A DNA stretch of 64,000 bases from Malacoraja senta (lineage: Eukaryota). Location: positions 9,612,001 to 9,676,000 of the forward strand of contig CM075994.1 in the NCBI GenBank assembly GCA_038087875.1, read 5' to 3'. The notes below the pieces were generated by a model. The model did not search any database and was not told where the DNA came from. It worked only from the letters and a program-made list of their open reading frames with translations. Shown in pieces: positions 1,553 through 63,638 of the stretch. Each line of letters begins with the position of its first letter. Position 1 is the first letter of the stretch. Made by a program: the position numbers and the translations under genes.

Positions 1553-4500
1553 CTGGAGAGAAGGGGGGTAAAAGGGGGAAAGAGATGGAGAGAGTTAACG
1601 GCGATGGAGCGGAGGACAGGAGCGAGAAGGTGGAGGAGGCAGAGACCCGGCTTCGATCCCGACTATGGGCGCTGTCTGTACGGAGTTTGCGCGTTCTACC
1701 CGTGACCTGCGTGGGTTTTCTCCGGGAGCTCCGGTTTCCTCCCACACTCCTTAAACGCACTAGGTTTGTAGACTAATTGGCTTCGGTAAAAATTGTAAAT
1801 CCCACACACCCTAGTATGTGTAGGATAATGTTAAGTATGCGGGAATCGCTGGTCAGTGCAGACTCGGTGGGCCGAAGGGCCTGTTTCCGCGCTGTATCTC
1901 TAATCTAAACTAACTTAAGCTTCCTATCTGAAGATACGTGATCTCCTGGTTGCTCAGCACTTCAACTCCCCCTCCCATTCCCACACTGACCTTTGTCCTG
2001 GGCCTCCTCCACTGTCAGAGTGAGGCCAAACACAAATTGGAGGAACAGCGCCTCATATTTCGCTTGGGCAGCTTACACCCCAGCGGTATAGAAACATAGA
2101 AAATAGGTGCAGGAGTAGGCCATTCGGCCCTTCGAGCCCGCACCACCATTCAATATGATCATGGCTGATCATCCAACTCAGTATCCTGTACCTGCCTTCT
2201 CTCCATACCCCCTGATCCCTTTAGCCACATATAACTCCCTCTTAAATATAGCCAATGAACTGGCCTCAACTACCTTCTGTGGCAGAGAATTCCAGAGATT
2301 CACCAGTCTCTGTGTGAAAAATGTTTTTCTCATCTCGGTCCTAAAAGACTTCCCCCTTATCCTTAAACTGTGACCCCGTGTTCTGGACTTCCCCAACATC
2401 GGGACCAATCTTCCTGCATCTAGCCTGTCCAACCCCTTAAGAATTTTGTAAGTTTCTATAAGATCCCCCCTGAATCTTCTAAATTCTAGCGAGTACATCT
2501 TTAAGTAACCCATGCATCCACCAGCTTTTGTGTTTATCCTTCGGTTTAAACCAGCATCCCAGGAATGAGTGGGTTAACATATGATGAGCGTTTGACGGCA
2601 CTGGGCCTGTACTGGCTGGAGTTTAGAATGATGAGGAGGGGGGGGGGGGGGGGGACCTCATTGAAACTTGCCAAAAAGTGAAAGGCCTGGATAGCGTGGA
2701 TGTGGAGAGGAATTTCCTTCAGTCAGAGGGTGGTGAATCTGTGGAATTCTTTGCCAGACAGCTGTGGAGGCCAAGTCAGTGGATATGTTGAAGGCAGAGA
2801 CTGATTCTCGATTCGTACGGGTGTCAGGGGTTATGGAGAGAAGGCAGGAGAATGGGGGTTGAGAGGGAGAGATAGATCAGCCAGGATTGAATGGCGGAGT
2901 AGACTTGATGGGCCAAATGGCCTAATTCTGCTCTTATCACTTTATGATCTGCAGTAGCTCCCTAAACTTCCTCTCCCAGCGGCCATGCAACACCTCCTGA
3001 ACACGACATGCAGGTTTTCTTCCTCAATCTGCTCCTGTGATCTGTAGCTGGCGTTCAACGTCCAAACCTGGCAACTCTCTGCCTGCTGTTACCAGAAGTG
3101 GATTTGCAATCATGCATTCCGATCGCTTCACCCTTTTAAACCCTTAATCCATCAGCAGCATTTCTGACTTTATCTTGCACTGAATGTCATCAGGAAATAG
3201 GAGCAGAATTAGGCCATTCGGCCCATCCAGTCCACCCCGCCATTCAATCATGGCTGATCTATCTCTCCCTCCTCACCCCCATTCTCCCGCCTTCTCCCCA
3301 TAACCTCCGACACCCGCACTCATCAAGAATCTATCTCCCTCTGCCTTAAAAACGTTACTCCCCTTAACGTGGTGGTGCCGCGCCAGAGCTGCTGACTGAC
3401 AGCACCAGAGGCCCGGGTTCGATCCTGACCGCGGGCGCTGTCTGTACGGAGTTTGCACGTTCTCCCCGTGAGTTTTCTCCGGGAGCTCCGGTTTCCTCCT
3501 ACACTCGAATGACGTACGGGTTTGTAGGTTATTTGGCTTGGATTAATTGGAAATTGTCCCATGTGTGTGTAGGATAGTGTTGGTGGGTGCATTCAGAAAC
3601 AAAACTCTGACATAGGCCACGAAAGTACATTACATAAGTCAATTCAGTAACATGCATCTCTGCATTTCAGTTTGAGTTTGGTTTGGCGAACTCTAAAGCA
3701 ATGAAAAAAAGAAACAAAAAATGCAGGTCAGGCGGCATCTCTGGAGAACATGTATAGGGGACGTTTCGGGTCTGGACCTTTCCTCCGTTCTTTCTGGGGG
3801 AGTTAAGCACTTTCTAGGGGCGTGAAGGGGCAGGACTGGCCAGGTTTTGGTGTGTGGGATTGTTACAATAGACAACAGGTGCAGGAGGAGGCCATTCGGA
3901 CCTTCGAGCCAGCACCGCCATTCCCTGTTATCATGGCTGATCATCCCCAATCAGTACCCCGTTCCTGCCTACTTCCCATATCTCCTGACTCCGCTATCTT
4001 TAAGAACCCTATCTAGCTCTCCCTTGAAAGTATCCAGAGAACCGGCCTCCACATCCCTCTGAGGCATAGAATTCCAGATTCACAAACCTCTGTGTGAAAA
4101 AGTTTTTCCTCATCTCCATTCTAAATGCTTTACCACTTATTCTTAAACTGTGTGGCCCCTGGTTCTGGACTCCCCCAACATCGGGAACATGTTTCCTGCC
4201 TCTAGCGTGTCCAAACCCTTAATAATCTTATATCTTTCAATGAGATACCCTCTCATCCTTCTAAATTCCAGAGTATACAAGCCGAGCCGCTTCATTCTAT
4301 CAACATATGACAGTCCCGTCATCCCGGGAATTAACCTGGTGAACCTACGCTGCACTCCCTCAATAGCAAGACCTACGTTCAGTCCCTCAATACCTGATGT
4401 TATTGGGGTGCTGACCCAACATGTCACCCATTCCTCTTCTCCAGAGATGCTGCCTGACCCGCTGAGTTACTCCAGCATTTTGTGTCCATCTTCAATCATT

Positions 4501-4672
4501 AACGTGTAGGAACTACAGTCAGTGGTTCAAACCGAAGATAGACACAAAACGCTGGAGTAACACAGCAGGACAGGCAGCATCTCTGGAGGGAAGGAATGGG
4601 TGATGTCTCAGGTCTTCTTCAGACTGAAGGGTCTCAACCCGAAAGGTCACACCCAGAGATGCTGCCAAGTCC

Positions 4673-26528: not shown

Positions 26529-27659
26529 TAAGTCTTTGGAGTGTGGGAGGAAACCGAATCTCGGAGAACCACGCAGATCACGGGAGAAACGTACGAACTC
26601 CGTACAGACAGCACCCGTAGTCGGGATCGAACCCGGGTCTCTGGTGCTGCATTTTGCTGCAAGGCAGCAACTCTACTGCTGCGCCACCGTGATAGCACTT
26701 TGTGTCTATTTTCGGTGTAAACCAGCATACGCAGTTCCTTCCGACACAATCGCAATTAAATGTCAGCTGTTCAGCCACGGACACCTCGCCCAAATGCAGG
26801 GATATTCCTGGTGCACTGATTCACCGACCAGAAGCTCCTTTGCCCTGACTGTCCCCAAGTGGTGAAAGTTTTGCCGCGCAAAGCCGCACAATTTTGGCCC
26901 AGTGGGCATATGCAAGGCAGATGCAGTTTAATGTGGATAAATGTGAAGTTGTCCACTTCGGTGGCAAAAAACAGGAAGGCAGATTATTATCTGAATGGTG
27001 TCAAGTTGGGAAAAGGGGAAGTACAACGGGATCTGGGTGGTCCTTGTTCAGGTGGTCCTTGTTCATCACTCACTGAAAGTAAGCATGCAGGTTACAGCAG
27101 GCAGTGAGGAAAGCGAGGAAGTTGGCCTTCATAACACGAGGAGTTGAGTATAGGAGCAAAGAGGTCCTTCTGCAGTTGTACAGGGCCCTAGTGAGACCAC
27201 ACCTGGAGTATTGTATGCAGTTTTGGTCTCCAAATTTGGACATTCTTGCTATTGAGGGAGTGCAGCGTAGGTTCACAAGGTTAATTCCCAGGATGGCGGG
27301 ACTGTCATATGTTGAAAGAATGGAGCAACTGGGCTTGTATACACTGGAATTTAGAAGGATGAGAGGGGATCTTATTGAAACATAAGATTAAGACTAGAGG
27401 CAGGAAACATGTTCCCGATGTTGGGAGAGTCCAGAAACCAGGGGGCCACGGTTTAAGAACAAGGGGTAAGCCATTTAGAACGGAGATGAGGAAAAAACGT
27501 CTTCACACAGAGAGTTGCAAGTCTGTGGAATTCCCTGCCTCAGAAGGCGGTGGAGGCCAATTCTCTGGATGCTTTCAAGAGAGAGTTAGATAGATCTCTT
27601 AAAGATAGCGTAGTCAGGGGATATGGGGAGAAGGCAAAAACGGGATACGAATTGTGGAT

Positions 27660-27791
27660 CTTCTTCTTCTTGTGTATGGCGTGCACGTGTAGGACAACTT
27701 GTTCTATTTGATCTTATTTGATTGTGCATGCCGGGTTGATTGCATTCGTCGAAACAGGGCGGACCACGTGAAGGTTGCAATCACCCACCCG
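27660..27791 (-). mobile_element. Short non-autonomous retroelement headed by an HDV-like ribozyme, (GAA)n tail
   Basis: TSD ATTGTGGAT at 27651-27659 and 27793-27801; inserted in a CR1 3' end. Confidence 0.8.
27738..27791 (-). ncRNA. Minimal HDV/CPEB3-like self-cleaving ribozyme (family A, copy 1)
   Basis: P1 GGGGTGG/CCGCCCT (G1-U wobble), P2 GATTGCA/TGCAATC, P3 ACC/GGT, L3 TTCACGT, then GT-TTCG-A-CGAA. Confidence 0.8.
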
Positions 27792-29562: not shown

Positions 29563-30791
29563 ACAAGGGAGAGCCAGTGGATGTAGTGTACCTGGACTTT
29601 CAGAAAGCATTTGATAAGGTCCCACATAGGAGATTAGTGGGCAAAATTAGGGCACATGGTATTGGGGGTGGAGTGCTGACATGGATAGAGAAGTGGTTGG
29701 CAGACAGGAAACAAAGAGTAGGGATTAACGGGTCCCTTTCAGAATGGCAGGCAGTGAGTAGTGGGGTACCGCAAGGCTCGGTGCTGGGACCGCAGCTATT
29801 TACAATATACACCAATGATTTGGATGAAGGGATTCAAAGTAACATTAGCAAATTTGCAGATGACACAAAGCTGGGTGGCAGTGCGAACTGTGAGGAGGAT
29901 GCTATGAGAATGCAGGGTGACTTGGACAGGTTGGGGGAGTGGGCAGATGCATGGCAGATGAAGTTTAATGCGGATAAATGTGAGGTTATCCACTTTGGTA
30001 GCAAAAACAGGAAGGCAGATTACTATCTAAAATGGCGTCAAGTTGGGAAAAGGAGAAGTACAACGGGATCTGGGGGTCCTTGTACATCAGTCTATGAAAG
30101 TAAGCATGCAGGTACAGCAGGCAATGAAGAAAGTGAATGGCATGTTGGCCTTTATAACAAGGAATCGAATATAGGAGCAAAGAGGTCCTTCTGCAGTTGT
30201 ACAGAGCCCTAGTGAGACCACACCTGGAGTATTGTGTGCAGTTTTGGTCCCCTAATTTGAGGAAGGACATTCTTGCTATTGAGGGAGTGCAGCGTAGGTT
30301 TACAAGGTTAATTCCCGGGATGGTGGGACTGGCATATGCTGAGAGAATGAAGCGGCTGGGCTTGTACACTCTGGAGTTTAGAAGGATGAGAGGATATCTC
30401 ATTGAAACATATAGGATTGTTAAGGGCTTGGACACACTAGAGGCAGGAAACATGTTCCCGATGTTGGGGGAGTCCAGAACCAGCGGCCACAGTTTAAGAA
30501 TAAGGATTAAGCCATTTAGAACAGAGACGAGGAAACACTTTTTCTCACAGAGAGTGGTGAGTCTGTGGAAGAGTGGTGAGTCTGTGGAATTCTCTGCCTC
30601 AGACGACGGCGGAGGCAGGTTCTCTGGATGCTTTCAAGAGAGCTAGATAGGGCTCTTAAAAATAGCGGAGTCGGGGGATATGGGGAGAAGGCAGGAACGG
30701 GGTACTGATGGGATCATCAGCCATGATCACATTGAATGGCAGTGCTGGCTCGAAGGGCCAAATGGCCTACTCCTGCACCTATTGTCTATTG
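29563..30791 (+). mobile_element. 5'-truncated CR1 LINE. Many similar fragments, e.g. 13140-13765 +, 26895-27875 +, 55350-56370 +, 3868-4370 -, 34088-34770 -, 38755-39380 -, 42388-42903 -, 48126-48585 -
   Basis: YLDFQKAFDKVPH, GVPQGSVLGP, FADD, RPHLEYCVQFW; 3' tail CCTATTGTCTATTG. Confidence 0.92.
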
Positions 30792-31959
30792 AAACGTCAC
30801 CTATTTATTTTCTCCAGAGATGCTGTCTGACCCCGCTGAGTTACTCCAGCTTTTTGTGATCTATCTGAGGGATTATAAGTAGAACTGCAGAGGCTAGTTA
30901 ATACATAAAGGACACAGTGTGCTGGAGTAACTCAGCAGGTCAGGCAGCATCACTGGAGAACACGGATAGGTGATGTTTCTGGTCGGGACCCTTCTTTAGA
31001 CTCTCTGGACTTGTATCTATTGTCCCCCCCCCCCCCTTCCCCCTCCACTCCTTCTTCCAGCTTCACAATTCCCAACCCTTCAATCCTTTGTCTCACATCA
31101 TCCGTTTTTTCTTTAAATCTCTGGCCTCTGCCCATCTGCCTGTTGTAAAACCACCCTCACCTACATCAAACTCATTACTCCCGTCAGACTTTGTCCTGCC
31201 CCTATCCTCCCTTCCAGCTTTCTCCCCCGCATCGCCCACATTCAGTCCGAAGAAGACTGAAGGGTCCCAACCTGAAACGTTGCTAATCCACGTTCTGCAG
31301 GGATGCTGCCTGACCCGCTGAGTTACTCCAGCACTTGGTGCCTTTTATCCTGCAGTTTCCTTGTTTCCACATTGCCTCGTTAGTTAACTTCGGGCGGAGA
31401 CCCTATCTTCAGACTAACCATGTTCTCCAGAGATGCTGCCTGGCCCCGCTGCGTTACTCCAGCACTATATTGTCTATTGAAACGGCCAGGAGAACGGCCA
31501 GGATCTCGGCCTCCGTAGAGGCAATAGCGGGGGCCTCATTTGGCCTGACTTTTTTGGGTGAACTGGGGCTGGGACTGGACATTGTGCCTTCCCCACAGTG
31601 GAAATCACTGTGGGGGGATGATTTTTGTATGTAATTGTTTGTAATTGTATTTGTTAGTCTGTGTTCAAGATGGCGGTCGGAGGGGAGAGTGGACGCTGGC
31701 GCGGTTTCGTTGCCGCTGCTCTCTCCTCAAATTGTGCTTCTGATTTTATTTTTTGTGTTTTTGGAAGGAATTCTGTCCCTGATTTGTGTATTGGTCTTTA
31801 TAACTTATTTTTTTAATTCTGATTATATGTTTCCTATAAATCTCTGTAAGGTGTCCTTGAGACCTCGGTATAAGGCGCCCGTAAATAAAATTCATTATCA
31901 TTATTATTATATGTCTTTCTACGGAATGGAAACGGTCAAGGTCTCCCTTGATCAATCGT

Positions 31960-40444: not shown

Positions 40445-40716
40445 CACATGGCAATCGATCCCTCCGGGAATCTCCCACCAGGTTCCGACCAACCGTGGAT
40501 AACCTGGCACAGTGTCACAGACTGCGGACAGGCGCGGGGAGGAGCAAATGGAAGATGCTGGAGTGGGGATATACTGAAGATGCCGCAGACTGAAAGTGTG
40601 GACGGGGCCTCCAGACTATGGAACATCTCCTGAGCTGTGACACGCTGCATGACACTGTAAAGGACCTTGCTGAGGCCTATGACGTGGCACTAAAATGTTG
40701 TGTGACAAAATAATAA
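40445..40716 (+). mobile_element. Second Vingi/RTEX-like LINE 3' fragment
   Basis: LPPGSDQPWITW, RLRTGAGRSK, KCG...QTMEHLLSC across a frameshift and a stop. Confidence 0.6.
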
Positions 40717-40764: not shown

Positions 40765-40964
40765 NNNNNNNNNNNNNNNNNNNNNNNNNNNNNNNNNNNN
40801 NNNNNNNNNNNNNNNNNNNNNNNNNNNNNNNNNNNNNNNNNNNNNNNNNNNNNNNNNNNNNNNNNNNNNNNNNNNNNNNNNNNNNNNNNNNNNNNNNNNN
40901 NNNNNNNNNNNNNNNNNNNNNNNNNNNNNNNNNNNNNNNNNNNNNNNNNNNNNNNNNNNNNNNN
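40765..40964. other. Assembly gap (200 N)
   Basis: Run of N. Confidence 1.
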
Positions 40965-43900: not shown

Positions 43901-45861
43901 CTCTCATTTCCCTTTCCCCCGACTCTCAGTCTGAAGAAGGGTCTCCTATTCCTTTTCTCCAAAGACGCTGCCTGACCCGCTGAGTTACTCCAGCATTTTG
44001 TGTCTGAGCCAAGACCAAAGATAGACATAAAATGCTGGAGTAACTCAGCCGGGTCAGGCAGCATCTCTAGAGAAAAGGAATAGGAGACGTTTCAAATCGA
44101 GGCCCTTCTTCAGACCGAGTGTCAGGGATCCAGTCTGAAGAAGGGTCTTGACCCGACACCTATTCCTTCTCTCCGGAGATGCTGCCTGACCCGCTGAGTT
44201 ACTCCAGAATTTTGTGTCTCTCTTCGATGTAAACTAACACCTGCAGTTCCTCCCAACACACGATGCCAAGACCATCTATTTGCCAGCACATACTGCATAT
44301 CCCTTCATTCGGTGCACATCCATGTGCCAATCAAAAAGAGTTTAGTTCAGAGATACAGCGTAGAAACAGACCCATCGGCCCACCAAGTCCGTGCCAACCA
44401 GCGATCACCCATGCACCAATTCTATCCTGCACACTAGGAACAACTTACTGAAGCCACAGAATGGAAACCCCCGCGGTCACAGCGAGAGGGAGAAATCTCC
44501 ACACAGTTCACACCCGAGGTCAGGATAAATAATGAGTAGAATTAGGCCATTCAGCCCATCCAGTCCACTCCACCATTCAATCATGGCTGATCTATCTCTC
44601 CCTCCGAACCCCATTCTCAGGCATTCTCCTCAAAACCCCAGACACCAGTACTAATCAAGAATCTATCCATCTCTGCCTTAAAAATATCCACTGACCTGGC
44701 CTCCACCGCTGTCTGTGGCAATAAATTCCAAATTCACCTCACTCGGACTAGAAATTCCTCCTCATCTCCTTCCTAAAGGAACGTCCTTTAATTCTGATGC
44801 TCCGACCTCTGGTCCTAGACTCCCACCAGTGGAAACATCCTCTCCACGTCCACTCGATTCACAGAACCCAAGTCTCTGGCTGTGAGGGAGTAGAGCTACC
44901 AGATGCTGTGCCGTCCTGAAGTCAAACTTAACAGGTCTTATCCAACTGAGTCTGACGAAGGGTCTCGACCCGAAACGTTATCAGACATCTGAACCATTGT
45001 ATCAACAAGTAGAGCAGTCCTGGGCTCCATCTACATCATTGGAGACGCTCGGACTATCCTGAATCATGCCTTACCTTGCACTAAACGCTATTCCGTTTAT
45101 CATGTATCTATGCACTGTGGACTGCTCGATTGTAATTATTGACTGGTTAAACTAAACTACCTCAGCACCGTCACTTTCCCCTCTTCAAATGGTATTTTCA
45201 ACCAGCAGACGAAGATCCTTTCAACCAACCCCTATCAGATCGCACTTTAACCATCTATTTTCCACTAAATACAAACTATATTCTTGCAACTGCCAACGCA
45301 ATTTAACATTGTTTAAGAAGGAACTTCAGATGCTTGAAAAACTCGAAGGTAGACAAAAATGCTGGAGACTCAGCGGGTGAGGCAGCACCTATGGAGCGAA
45401 GGAATAGGTGACGTTTCGGGTCAAGACCCTTCTTCAGACTGATGTGAGGGTGGGGGGGGCAGGAAGAAGAAAGGAAGAGGCGGAGACAGTGGGCTGAGGG
45501 AGAGCTGGGAAGGGGAGGGGAAGGAGGGAGAAAGCAAGGACTACATGAAATTGGAGAAGTCAATGTTGTCAATGTGTAAACTGCCCAAGCGAATGTGTAA
45601 ACTGCCCAAGCGAAATATGAGGTGCTACTCCTCCAATTTACGGTGGGCCTCACTCTGGCCATGGAGGAGGCCCAGGACAGAAAGGTTGGATTCGGAATGG
45701 GAAGGGGAGTTGAAGTGCTGAGCCACCAGGGATAGTTGGATAGTTTAGTGCATTGTCACGTGTACCGAGATGCAGTGATAATCTTTTGTTTTGCGTGCTG
45801 TCCAGTCAAAACAATAACTATAAGACGACAAACTATGGTTTGAAAGGGTTTTCAGATAGGC

Positions 45862-53890: not shown

Positions 53891-53956
53891 GGGGTTGGTT
53901 CGCGTTGGTTCGACCGCATTTGGAGTATTGTGCAAAATCCTTCCATTAAATCAGAT

Positions 53957-54111
53957 CTTCTTCTTATCGAGTCCACACACAAGATCAGAAGTTGTTCGGC
54001 CAGACCTGAACACACTTCACGGCATTTGCATACAATGGTGTCTGTCTTGCGCTTCTGGTGAAAAGATAGGTGGAAACAGGGCCGCGACGTGAATGCTCTT
54101 TCCTTGACCCC
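53957..54111 (-). mobile_element. Second family of ribozyme-headed short retroelement, (GAA)3 tail
   Basis: Imperfect TSD ATTAAATCAGAT (53945-53956) / TTTAAAACAGAT (54112-54123); body unrelated to family A. Confidence 0.7.
54060..54111 (-). ncRNA. Minimal HDV/CPEB3-like ribozyme (family B, possibly decayed)
   Basis: P1 GGGGTC/GGCCCT, P2 GGAAAGA/TCTTTTC, P3 GCA/CGC (one mismatch), L3 TTCACGT, then GT-TTCC-A-CCTA. Confidence 0.65.
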
Positions 54112-56459
54112 TTTAAAACAGATAAAGAGAATGTGATGAAAAATTGGAGTGAAACCGTTTATCCATTTTCCTTTTGAAAGTCATACTTTGTTGAGTGTAG
54201 AGCTAAGGAACTGAAGATGCTGCTTTACCAAAATAAAAGACAAAATGCTGGAGTAACTCGGTCACCCCACTCTGGGTAAGAGACTGAGCATGTCCCCGAT
54301 CTATGCCTCTCATGATCGTATGCACCTCCATAAGATCACCAGTGCTCCAAGGAATAAAGTCCTAGCCTGCCCAGCTCCTCCCAATAGCTCAGGCACTCAA
54401 GTCCTGGCAACAACCAAGCAAATCTTTTCTGCACTCTTTCCCACTTCACAACATCATTCTGATTCCACAAAAGACCCTTCTTCCTGCCCTGAAACGTCAC
54501 CTATCCAGAGATGCTGCCTGACCCGCTGAGTTACTCCAGCACTTAGTGCCCTATTATGTATTAACCAGCATCTGCAATTATTTGTTTCCCATGTACCAAT
54601 AGACAATAGAAAATAGGTGTAAGAGATTGGAGGAACAGCACCTCATATTTCGTTTGGGCAGCTTATACACCCCAGCGGTATGAACATTGACTTCTCTAAC
54701 TTCAAATAGCCCTTGTTTTCCCTCTCTCTACATCCCCCCCCCCCCCTTCCCAGTTCTCCCACCAGTCTTACTATCTCCGACTACATTCAATCTCTGTCCC
54801 CTGACATCAGTCTGAAAAAGGGTCTCGACCCGAAACATCGCCCATTCCTTCTCTCCAGAGATGCCGCCAGTCCCGCTGAGTTACTCCGGCATTTTGTGTC
54901 TACATTTTCTCGCGTCTTCCCTTCTCCATTGTTTGCAGTGGAGGAGGTTGTCATGGTCACCGCACGTATCGAGACCATGCTGGGAGGTACCACATATAGC
55001 TTTCATCATATGACAGTCCCGCCATCCCGGGAATTAACCTGGTGAACCTACGCTGCACTCCCTCAATAGTAAAAATGTCCTTCCTCAAATTTGGAGACCA
55101 AAACTGCACACAATACTCCAGGTGTGGTCTCGCTAGGGCCCTGTACAACTGCAGAAGGGCCTCTTTGCTCAGCTCCTCTTGTTATGGAGGCCAACATGCC
55201 TATAGCTTTCTTCACTGCCTGCTGTACCTGCATGCTTACTTTCAAAGATGTTGCCAGGACGAGAGGGTGTGAGCTACAGGGAGAGGTTGGCAGGCTGGGA
55301 CACTATTCCTTGGAGCTCAGGAGGATGAGGGGTGATCTTATAGAGGTGTGGCAGGCAGTGGCAAATGGAGTGCCGCAAGGCTCGGTGTTGGGGCTGCAAC
55401 TGTTTACCATATAGATTAATGATTTGGAAGAGGGAATTAGGAGCAACACTAGCAAGTTTGCGGATGACACAAAGCTGGGTGGCAGTGTGAACTGTGAAGA
55501 GGATGTTAGGAGGTTGCAGGGTGACCTGGACAGGTTGAGTGAGTGGGCAGATGCAGTATAATATAGATAAATGTGAGGTTATCCACTTTGGTGGCAAAAA
55601 CAAGGGGGCAGATTATTATCTCAATGGGGTTAGGTTAGGTAAGGGGGAGGTACAGCGAGACCTGGCGTCCTTGTACACCGGTCACTGAAAGTTGGCGTGC
55701 AGGTACAGCAGGCAGTGAAGAAAGCTAATGGAATGTTGGCCTTCATAACAAGAGGATTTCAGTATCGGAGTAGAGAGGTTCTTCTGCAGTTGTATAGGGC
55801 TCTGGTAAGACCACATCTGGAGTATTGTGTACAGTTTTGGTCTCCTAATTTGAGGAAGGATATCCTTGTGATTGAGGCAGTGCAGCGTAGGTTCACGAGA
55901 TTGATCCCTGGGGATGGCGGGAATGTCATATGAGGAAAGATTGAAAAGACTAGGCTTGTATTCACTGGAGTTTAGAAGGATGAGGGGGGGTCTTGTAGAG
56001 ACATATAAAATTATAAAAGGACTGGACAAGCTAGATGCGGGAAAAATGTTCCCAATGTTGGGCGAGTCCAGAACCAGGGGCCACAGTCTTAGAATAAAGG
56101 GGAGGCCATTTAAGACTGAGGTGAGAAAAAACGTTTTCACCCAGAGAGTTGTGAATTTGTGGAATTCCCTGCCACAGAGGGCAGTGGAGGCCAAATCACT
56201 GGATGGATTTAAGAGAGAGTTAGATAGAGCTCTAAGGGTTAGTGGAATCAAGGGATATGGGGAGAAGGCAGGCACGGGTTATTGATTGGGGACGATCAGC
56301 CATGATCACAATGAATGGCTGGCTCGAAGGACCGAATGGCCTCCTCCTGCACCTATTTTCTACGTTGCTATGTTTCTCGCCACATTTGACAGTGAAGGGG
56401 TTAATGTTGACGTTGGGTTTGTGTTTTTGACCGTGACAGGGGGGTGGTGGGCCGCTGCC

Positions 56460-63206: not shown

Positions 63207-63260
63207 GGGGTGGGAGATTGCAACTTTCACGTGGTCCGCCCTGTTTCGACGAATGCAATC
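63207..63260 (+). ncRNA. Minimal HDV/CPEB3-like ribozyme (family A, copy 2)
   Basis: GGGGTGG GA GATTGCA ACT TTCACGT GGT CCGCCCT GT TTCG A CGAA TGCAATC; P3 keeps pairing through a U-G wobble. Confidence 0.8.
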
Positions 63261-63344
63261 AACCTGGCGTGCACAATCAAGTAAGATCAAATAGAACAAG
63301 TTGTCCTACAACTTTAGGCTGTGCACGCCATACGCAAGAAGAAG
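63207..63344 (+). mobile_element. Short non-autonomous retroelement headed by an HDV-like ribozyme, (GAA)n tail
   Basis: Imperfect TSD AAGAGAGAGTTA / AAGAGAGAGCTT; inserted in CR1; homologous to 27660-27791. Confidence 0.8.
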
Positions 63345-63638
63345 AAGAGAGAGCTTGATAGGGCTCTTAAAGGTAGCCGAGTCAGGGGATATGGGGAGAA
63401 GGCAGGAACGGGGTACTGATTGGGGATGATCAGCCACGATCACATTGAATGGCGGTGCTGGCTCGAAGGGCCAAATGGCCTACTCCTGCACCTATTGTCT
63501 ATTGTCTAAAACGCTGGAGTAACTCAGCGGGACAGACGGCACCTCTGGGGAGAAGGAATGGGTGACGTCTCGGGTCGAGGCCCTTCTTGAGATTGTACAG
63601 CTATAGAAACCCAGACTTCTCTCCTTCAACCCTCTCAG

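What the first reader, a model, noticed from the sequence alone, without database searches (positions are those of the whole stretch)
53957..54111. Second, independent ribozyme-headed element: stems covary while the catalytic core is kept
Seen in sequence: the minus strand reads GGGGUC AA GGAAAGA GCA UUCACGU CGC GGCCCU GU UUCC A CCUA UCUUUUC. P2 and P3 differ entirely from family A but still pair (P2 7 bp; P3 2 of 3, consistent with CpG decay of GCG). L3 UUCACGU, G1-U and CCCU-GU are identical to family A. It has the same architecture (TSD, start at G1, (GAA)3 tail) but an unrelated body ending in what looks like an ORF end (...NAVKCVQVWPNNF*). Inference: covariation supports a real RNA fold and more than one origin of these elements by internal deletion of autonomous LINEs. 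J4/2 CCUA deviates from C-NRA, so this copy may be inactive.
Basis: partly seen in the sequence, partly recalled or inferred. Interest (0 to 1): 0.85.

Follow-up and report, generated by a model that had tools for sequence, protein, structure and literature searches.

The report
Ribozyme-capped mini-retrotransposon cut from a LINE
This is one decayed copy of a roughly 165-base jumping element, present over a thousand times in this animal genome, that ends like a Vingi-type LINE retrotransposon and begins with a predicted, unusually small self-cutting RNA whose relatives on full-length LINEs closely resemble the mammalian CPEB3 ribozyme, hinting at where that ribozyme likely came from.

Summary
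The element is real. It is a ~165-nt non-autonomous retroelement with at least 1,100 copies, target-site duplications (40 of 66 copies; 0 of 66 in controls), a sharp start at G1 and a (GAA)n tail. Its 52-nt head folds on paper as an HDV-like ribozyme with a 6-bp P1 and no P4. The family restores what this copy lost (P3 GCG/CGC, J4/2 C-CAA), so only this copy looks dead. Its last 75 nt are the end of a Vingi-type LINE in the same genome (88% identical). That LINE's 5' end was not found. Family A, however, shares both ends with a different Vingi-type LINE, which shows internal deletion directly for A. Heads from eight families covary (122 of 128 cells paired; shuffle maximum 99). So it is a SIDE/RIME-like element, a known kind. 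Three points look new: ribozymes across Vingi-type LINEs, P4-less heads in an animal genome, and heads of a sister LINE family that pass Rfam's mammalian CPEB3 threshold (57-64 bits against 35). Cleavage is untested.

The parts
54113..54123 (-). 5' copy of the target-site duplication (one extra A at 54112 before G1)
54060..54111 (-). Predicted minimal HDV-like ribozyme head, 52 nt, no P4; predicted cleavage just 5' of G1 (54111)
   Evidence: Rfam CPEB3 model 22.7 bits on this copy, 30.8 on copy L006
54106..54111 (-). P1 5' strand (6 bp, G1-U wobble); partner at 54083-54078
54097..54103 (-). P2 5' strand (7 bp); partner at 54066-54060
54084..54096 (-). P3 (54096-54094 with 54086-54084; one A-C mismatch from CpG decay) closing L3 (54093-54087)
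   Evidence: G at position 18 in 51 of 64 copies
54071..54077 (-). J1/4 GU (P1.1 partner) plus a 5-nt linker in place of P4
54067..54070 (-). J4/2; putative catalytic C at 54070; this copy reads CCTA, the family CCAA
   Evidence: C42 in 62 of 64, A44 in 61 of 64
54032..54059 (-). Likely remnant of the LINE 5' UTR up to an ATG; about 10 nt shorter here than in most copies
   Evidence: an ATG follows the head at a similar distance in families C, L233, L234; inference
53957..54031 (-). 3' end of the partner Vingi-type LINE: last codons of the ORF, stop (53987-53985), 3' UTR, (AAG)3 tail
   Evidence: mean 88% over 26 matches for copy L006; 84-88% for this copy
53946..53956 (-). 3' copy of the target-site duplication
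63207..63347 (+). Family A copy (sister element; head and tail both match a second Vingi-type LINE)
27659..27790 (-). Second, more decayed family A copy (G1 lost)

Best explanation
The element is a short non-autonomous retrotransposon that ends with the last 75 bases of a Vingi-type LINE and likely arose by internal deletion of that LINE, keeping a 5' head predicted to fold as a minimal HDV-like self-cleaving ribozyme. Shown: a multicopy family, TSDs, a sharp start at G1, the shared 3' end, and a head of the same kind on full-length relatives. Inferred steps: a copy is transcribed inside a host transcript; the head folds and cuts just before G1; the partner LINE's endonuclease/reverse transcriptase recognises the 3' end and copies the RNA into a nicked target, giving an 8-13 bp TSD. 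The copy in this window has since lost a P3 pair and the J4/2 purine and is probably inactive.
For: TSDs in 40 of 66 copies against 0 of 66 mismatched controls; 57 of 66 alignments start at base 1. In public contigs the 5' loose ends peak at G1 (366 against 47 two bases further in, run X19). The 3' 75 nt match a LINE family with RT and a C-terminal Cys-His motif. Full-length ~3.1-kb single-ORF relatives (Pfam endonuclease + RVT_1) carry HDV-like heads at their 5' ends. Eight families: 122 of 128 cells paired against a shuffle mean of 83 and maximum of 99; P1+P3 alone 67 of 72 against a maximum of 61. B's head is most like family C's (34 of 45 positions), and C is the B-LINE's nearest family in this genome (tree support 83). 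Family A shares bases 2-77 and 95-140 with its own LINE, whose head also lacks P4. Coding LINEs in metagenome contigs carry heads with a 6-bp P1 and no P4 (L259, L266, L267, L269).
Against: The partner LINE's 5' end was not found. Only 1 copy reached the endonuclease end, 20 kb upstream of it held no B head, none of 25 pattern hits continued into an ORF, and no N-terminus above 61% identity to the closest intact relative turned up. The nested minimum-energy fold of copy L006 is a different hairpin (-10.6 kcal/mol) from P1+P3 (-9.5), though the program cannot fold pseudoknots. B scores below Rfam's threshold (30.8 against 35 bits). Only 19 of 64 copies keep all 16 pairs, the core and L3. The shuffle test ignores relatedness, and P2' was located by best pairing. 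Many copies were picked for similarity or by the L3 motif, which inflates conservation.
Confidence: 0.78

Rival explanations
1. B is a chimera: a head taken from one Vingi-type family, such as a relative of C, joined by template switching to the tail of the B-LINE.
For: No B-LINE 5' end was seen. The head is 84% like C's over 37 nt. Kojima 2018 reports tail exchange in SINEs (abstract).
Against: Head similarity follows the RT tree. Sister family A is a plain deletion derivative. No LINE family in this genome has B's exact head.
Confidence: 0.12
2. The head keeps the fold but no longer cleaves. It acts as an internal promoter (as Pr77 does in L1Tc) or as a binding site or cap for the LINE protein, and that sets the 5' end.
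For: P1 is short, P4 is absent and a competing hairpin exists. The L1Tc head is both promoter and ribozyme (abstracts; passages).
Against: The catalytic C, J4/2, L3, G1-U and P1.1 are all kept in the family, and P1.1 changes on both sides in family F (U-A for C-G). P4-less theta ribozymes cleave in vitro (passages). Promoter and ribozyme roles can coexist.
Confidence: 0.08
3. A conventional Pol III SINE or a chance repeat whose head only looks like a ribozyme.
For: SINE-like size and copy number.
Against: No tRNA, 5S or 7SL match at E up to 10. The descriptor gave 1 hit in 12 random 64-kb sequences. Covariation across families.
Confidence: 0.02

Closest known systems
Bipartite non-autonomous LINEs / SIDEs: RIME (Ingi), NARTc (L1Tc), R2 SIDEs, Vingi-1_EE deletion derivatives
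   Same: Only the two ends of a LINE, ORF deleted, mobilised in trans. NARTc, SIDER and R2 SIDE heads are HDV-like ribozymes (passages).
   Different: Much shorter head (52 nt, no P4, 6-bp P1). Dispersed in an animal genome. [quoted passage not shown]
Vingi clade LINEs (the partner element)
   Same: Single ORF, APE endonuclease + RT, no RNase H, about 3.1 kb. Close homologues in anole, lancelet, sea urchin and icefish.
   Different: The clade label rests on architecture and on my recall that the anole protein P0057 is Vingi-1_Acar. No named reference was in the tree.
Minimal HDV-like ribozymes (drz-Mtgn, theta ribozymes)
   Same: No P4, about 50 nt.
   Different: Those were reported from gut metagenomes and phages, nearly 99% in Caudoviricetes (passages). 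Here they head retroelements in an animal genome.
Mammalian CPEB3 ribozyme (Rfam RF00622)
   Same: B shares an identical 19-nt run through P3-L3-P3'-P1'. Family C heads score 56.7-64.2 bits against a threshold of 35, with matching element lengths and double-sided changes in P1 and P4.
   Different: CPEB3 is single-copy, intronic, and has a 7-bp P1 and a P4. B lacks P4 and scores 30.8 bits. No synteny or descent was tested.

Membership tests
HDV-like ribozyme | Nested double pseudoknot P1/P2/P3 with compensatory changes | tested here: met
HDV-like ribozyme | G1-pyrimidine pair at the cleavage site, L3, P1.1 pair | tested here: met
   (C-G in B; U-A in family F)
HDV-like ribozyme | Catalytic C in J4/2 of form C-N-R-A | tested here: met
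   Family: 57 of 64 copies. Not met in the window copy (CCTA).
HDV-like ribozyme | 7-bp P1 and a P4 helix (canonical form) | tested here: not met
   6 bp and no P4. Absence of P4 defines the minimal subgroup. A 6-bp P1 recurs in LINE heads L248, L255, L259 and family H.
HDV-like ribozyme | Self-cleavage 5' of G1 | not testable with these tools
   No assay; public runs were contigs only
Rfam CPEB3_ribozyme RF00622 | Score of at least 35 bits | tested here: not met
   B 30.8, window copy 22.7. Met by family C (5 copies, 56.7-64.2) and L233 (43.3).
Bipartite non-autonomous LINE (SIDE) | 3' end shared with an autonomous LINE | tested here: met
Bipartite non-autonomous LINE (SIDE) | 5' end shared with the same LINE | tested here: inconclusive
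   B-LINE 5' end not found; met for family A
Bipartite non-autonomous LINE (SIDE) | Dispersed copies with variable TSDs and no RNA-gene head | tested here: met
Vingi clade (partner LINE) | Single ORF, APE + RT, no RNase H | tested here: met
   Pfam on families C and D; the B-LINE's closest intact relatives P0006 and P0031 have the same domains
Vingi clade (partner LINE) | RT phylogeny as sister to Ingi, apart from RTE | tested here: inconclusive
   The tree lacked named Ingi, Vingi or RTE references. A C-terminal Cys-His motif is present; its absence from RTE is recalled.

The most novel reading that the evidence does not exclude
Vingi-type LINEs as a clade carry 5' HDV-like ribozymes, including 52-54-nt P4-less forms amplified over a thousand times in an animal genome. 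The mammalian CPEB3 ribozyme, so far without a non-mammalian outgroup, is the domesticated head of one such LINE from the lineage that includes families B and C.
Probability: 0.45. Interest if true: 0.78.

Novelty: new variant of a known kind. Interest (0 to 1): 0.6.

Why it matters
The element type is known, but three things follow if the heads cleave. First, the smallest natural HDV-like fold, reported so far from gut phages and metagenomes, would have a role in an animal retroelement. Second, Vingi elements are being developed as RNA-only gene-insertion tools that keep the native 5' UTR (passages); a self-cleaving head would explain what that UTR does. Third, Bendixsen 2021 notes that the CPEB3 ribozyme has no outgroup outside mammals (passage). 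Family C heads match it at 37 of 45 core positions (my count), more than A or B match any other family here (20-34 of 45). The human genome holds a Vingi fossil, X12_LINE. This makes the ribozyme's origin directly testable.

Tried and rejected
Walking to the B-LINE 5' end failed; one further gapped-pattern search could not be run, so a head-plus-ORF copy is not excluded. Expression: no RNA holder listed, and the four runs laid were contigs with no molecule-start data, so nothing follows for or against transcription or cleavage. Viral contigs: 83 pattern matches, no relative. The strict descriptor found heads in only 9 of 35 metagenome LINE loci (0 on the reverse strand) and 7 of 30 own-genome loci (0 of 60 controls). 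Further heads were visible by eye, and many loci were 5'-truncated. Family E's head lacks its P1 5' strand and was left out of the covariation count, which used one copy per family. L007 and L015 were dropped as duplicates, and 4 of 40 pattern loci were not B. Rfam microRNA hits in the window are hairpin repeats below threshold. RTE as the partner clade was considered and is disfavoured by the C-terminal Cys-His motif (recalled criterion). Three look-ups of earlier findings returned nothing. Four key papers were not held: Ruminski 2011, Kojima 2011, Webb 2009, Webb and Luptak 2011. They, their supplements, Repbase or patents may already list Vingi ribozymes or the CPEB3 likeness.

Full report
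Observation. On the minus strand, 54111-54060 divides into P1 (6 bp, G1-U), AA, P2 (7 bp), P3, L3 TTCACGT, GU, a 5-nt linker, J4/2 and P2'. A 28-nt spacer, 75 nt ending in (AAG)3 and an 11-bp TSD with one mismatch complete the element. A descriptor allowing one mismatch finds only this site and the family A copy at 63207 in the window, and 1 site in 12 random 64-kb sequences. The genome is a 1.94-Gb animal assembly; its repeats suggest a cartilaginous fish, which is my recall and was not tested.

The family. A DNA search gave 1127 first-look candidates, 40 scored, all 86-92% identical over nearly the full length apart from the self-match. The core motif occurs 1792 times against 585 for the reversed control. 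Among 66 copies, 40 have a TSD scoring at least 8 (8-13 bp), against 0 of 66 shuffled flank pairs; 57 align from base 1, and 40 of those 57 have T just before G1. Thirty of these copies were best hits and 36 were picked by the L3 motif, so they are biased toward intact heads. Column counts over 64 copies give G18 in 51, catalytic C42 in 62 and A44 in 61. This copy has A18, T44 and T51, so its P3 mismatch and CCUA are decay, not family features. CpG sites are mutated in 19 of 224 cells against 20 of 1226 elsewhere. The P2+P3 energy is -7.6 kcal/mol in copy L006 and -1.8 here. The element is held by runs from seven coded organisms, and 5' loose ends of contigs peak at G1.

The tail. A flank of L045 showed a LINE fragment ending like B. 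Searching with it gave a family whose 3' ends match B's last 75 nt at a mean of 88% (26 matches). It encodes RT and a C-terminal Cys-His motif ending ...EKCVQLWLNNI. Copies are old, broken and 5'-truncated: 3 matches reached the RT start, 3 the linker and 1 the endonuclease end. The 5' end was not found. Its closest intact relatives are P0006 and P0031 (an icefish protein), which end in the same motif.

Relatives carry the same kind of head. A protein search found many ~3.1-kb single-ORF LINEs with endonuclease and RT and no RNase H. Six families (C, D, F, G, H, I) have an HDV-like head with P4 at the 5' end, and a seventh (E) has a 5'-cut one. With A and B, one copy per family, 122 of 128 stem cells pair, against a shuffle mean of 83 and maximum of 99. 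P1+P3 alone give 67 of 72 against a maximum of 61. Family F changes P1.1 from C-G to U-A. The shuffle ignores relatedness. Between A and B, 5 of 7 P2 pairs, 2 of 3 P3 pairs and 1 of 6 P1 pairs change on both sides. B's head is closest to C's (34 of 45), and C is the B-LINE's nearest family in this genome (support 83), while the A-LINE groups with E (support 91).

Family A settles the deletion model for A. Bases 2-77 match the 5' end of a LINE at about 90% (L327, L328), directly followed by its UTR and ORF, and bases 95-140 match that LINE's 3' end at 95-96%. So the P4-less head already exists on a coding LINE. In metagenome contigs, 9 of 35 related LINE loci had a descriptor hit upstream of the ORF (0 on the reverse strand). 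Four of these (L259, L266, L267, L269; one family of broken copies) have B's exact layout: 6-bp P1, AA, 7-bp P2, no P4.

Mechanism. By analogy with R2, L1Tc and RTE elements (passages), a copy is likely transcribed within a host RNA and cut free at G1. The partner protein would then bind the 3' end and copy it into a nicked site. The sharp G1 start fits this but would also fit an internal promoter. The deletion joint lies at an ATG about 38 nt after the head, similar to the start-codon spacing in family C and L233/L234. A short repeat around ATG may have guided the deletion; that is inference. Nothing here shows transcription or cleavage.

The CPEB3 likeness. B shares 19 consecutive bases with the Rfam CPEB3 consensus but scores 30.8 bits, below the threshold of 35. 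Five family C heads score 56.7-64.2 and metagenome head L233 scores 43.3. Other heads score 23-34 or were not listed. By my count, C matches the consensus at 37 of 45 core positions and B at 34. Against descent: the fold constrains the core; I picked the best of about twenty heads; structure-based searches already found CPEB3-related ribozymes in sea urchin, lamprey and lancelet (passage); and domestication of vertebrate ribozymes from mobile elements has been suggested in general terms (passage).

Literature. [quoted passage not shown] All other papers were seen as passages or search listings only. Nine searches showed no paper reporting a Vingi ribozyme, this family, or a Vingi origin of CPEB3. 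Four central papers were not held, no supplements were read, and Repbase and patents were not searchable, so absence from print is not established.

Verdict. A real element of a known kind (SIDE/RIME-like) in a new variant: a minimal head, a Vingi-type partner and an animal host. The window copy is probably dead. Interest is 0.6, carried mainly by the minimal fold and the testable CPEB3 link.

Noticed in passing
L123 (oriented 486-660) and L124 (oriented 484-610): Two near-intact family C LINEs start with 4-6 tandem copies of a 26-nt piece of the ribozyme running from one GATC to the next, which suggests reverse-transcriptase slippage at the P1 strands.
   Followed up: no
L322, L325, L326: The family A head is inverted relative to the LINE ORF, like the 5' inversions known from L1.
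   Followed up: no
B copies: TSDs usually begin with A and end with T (T before G1 in 40 of 57), suggesting a target preference or microhomology with the tail.
   Followed up: partly
window 40448-40704 (+): 3' fragment of yet another Vingi-type LINE (43-48% to the family C C-terminus), just before an assembly gap at 40766.
   Followed up: partly
L288 1353-1435: A further LINE family with a CPEB3-like head (34.4 bits) whose P1 5' strand is missing; no GAA tail was found downstream.
   Followed up: partly
L158, L304, L305 (family H): Head with a 6-bp P1 and a P2 identical to that of the Rfam CPEB3 consensus.
   Followed up: partly
L036 vs L006 families: Family A's 40 best copies are 98-100% identical, suggesting a younger subfamily than the A-LINE copies found (84-94%), so a younger driver LINE may be unassembled or not found.
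   Followed up: no
B body, e.g. L217: A 9-nt unit after the head varies from 0 to about 5 copies among B elements, giving length variants.
   Followed up: no
L090 1-1250: An LTR-element-like RT/RNase H stretch abuts the only B-LINE copy that reaches the endonuclease domain (identified by eye).
   Followed up: no
window 43971-44058, 4452-4575, 30781-30992 and others: Abundant hairpin (MITE-like) repeats give sub-threshold Rfam microRNA hits.
   Followed up: no
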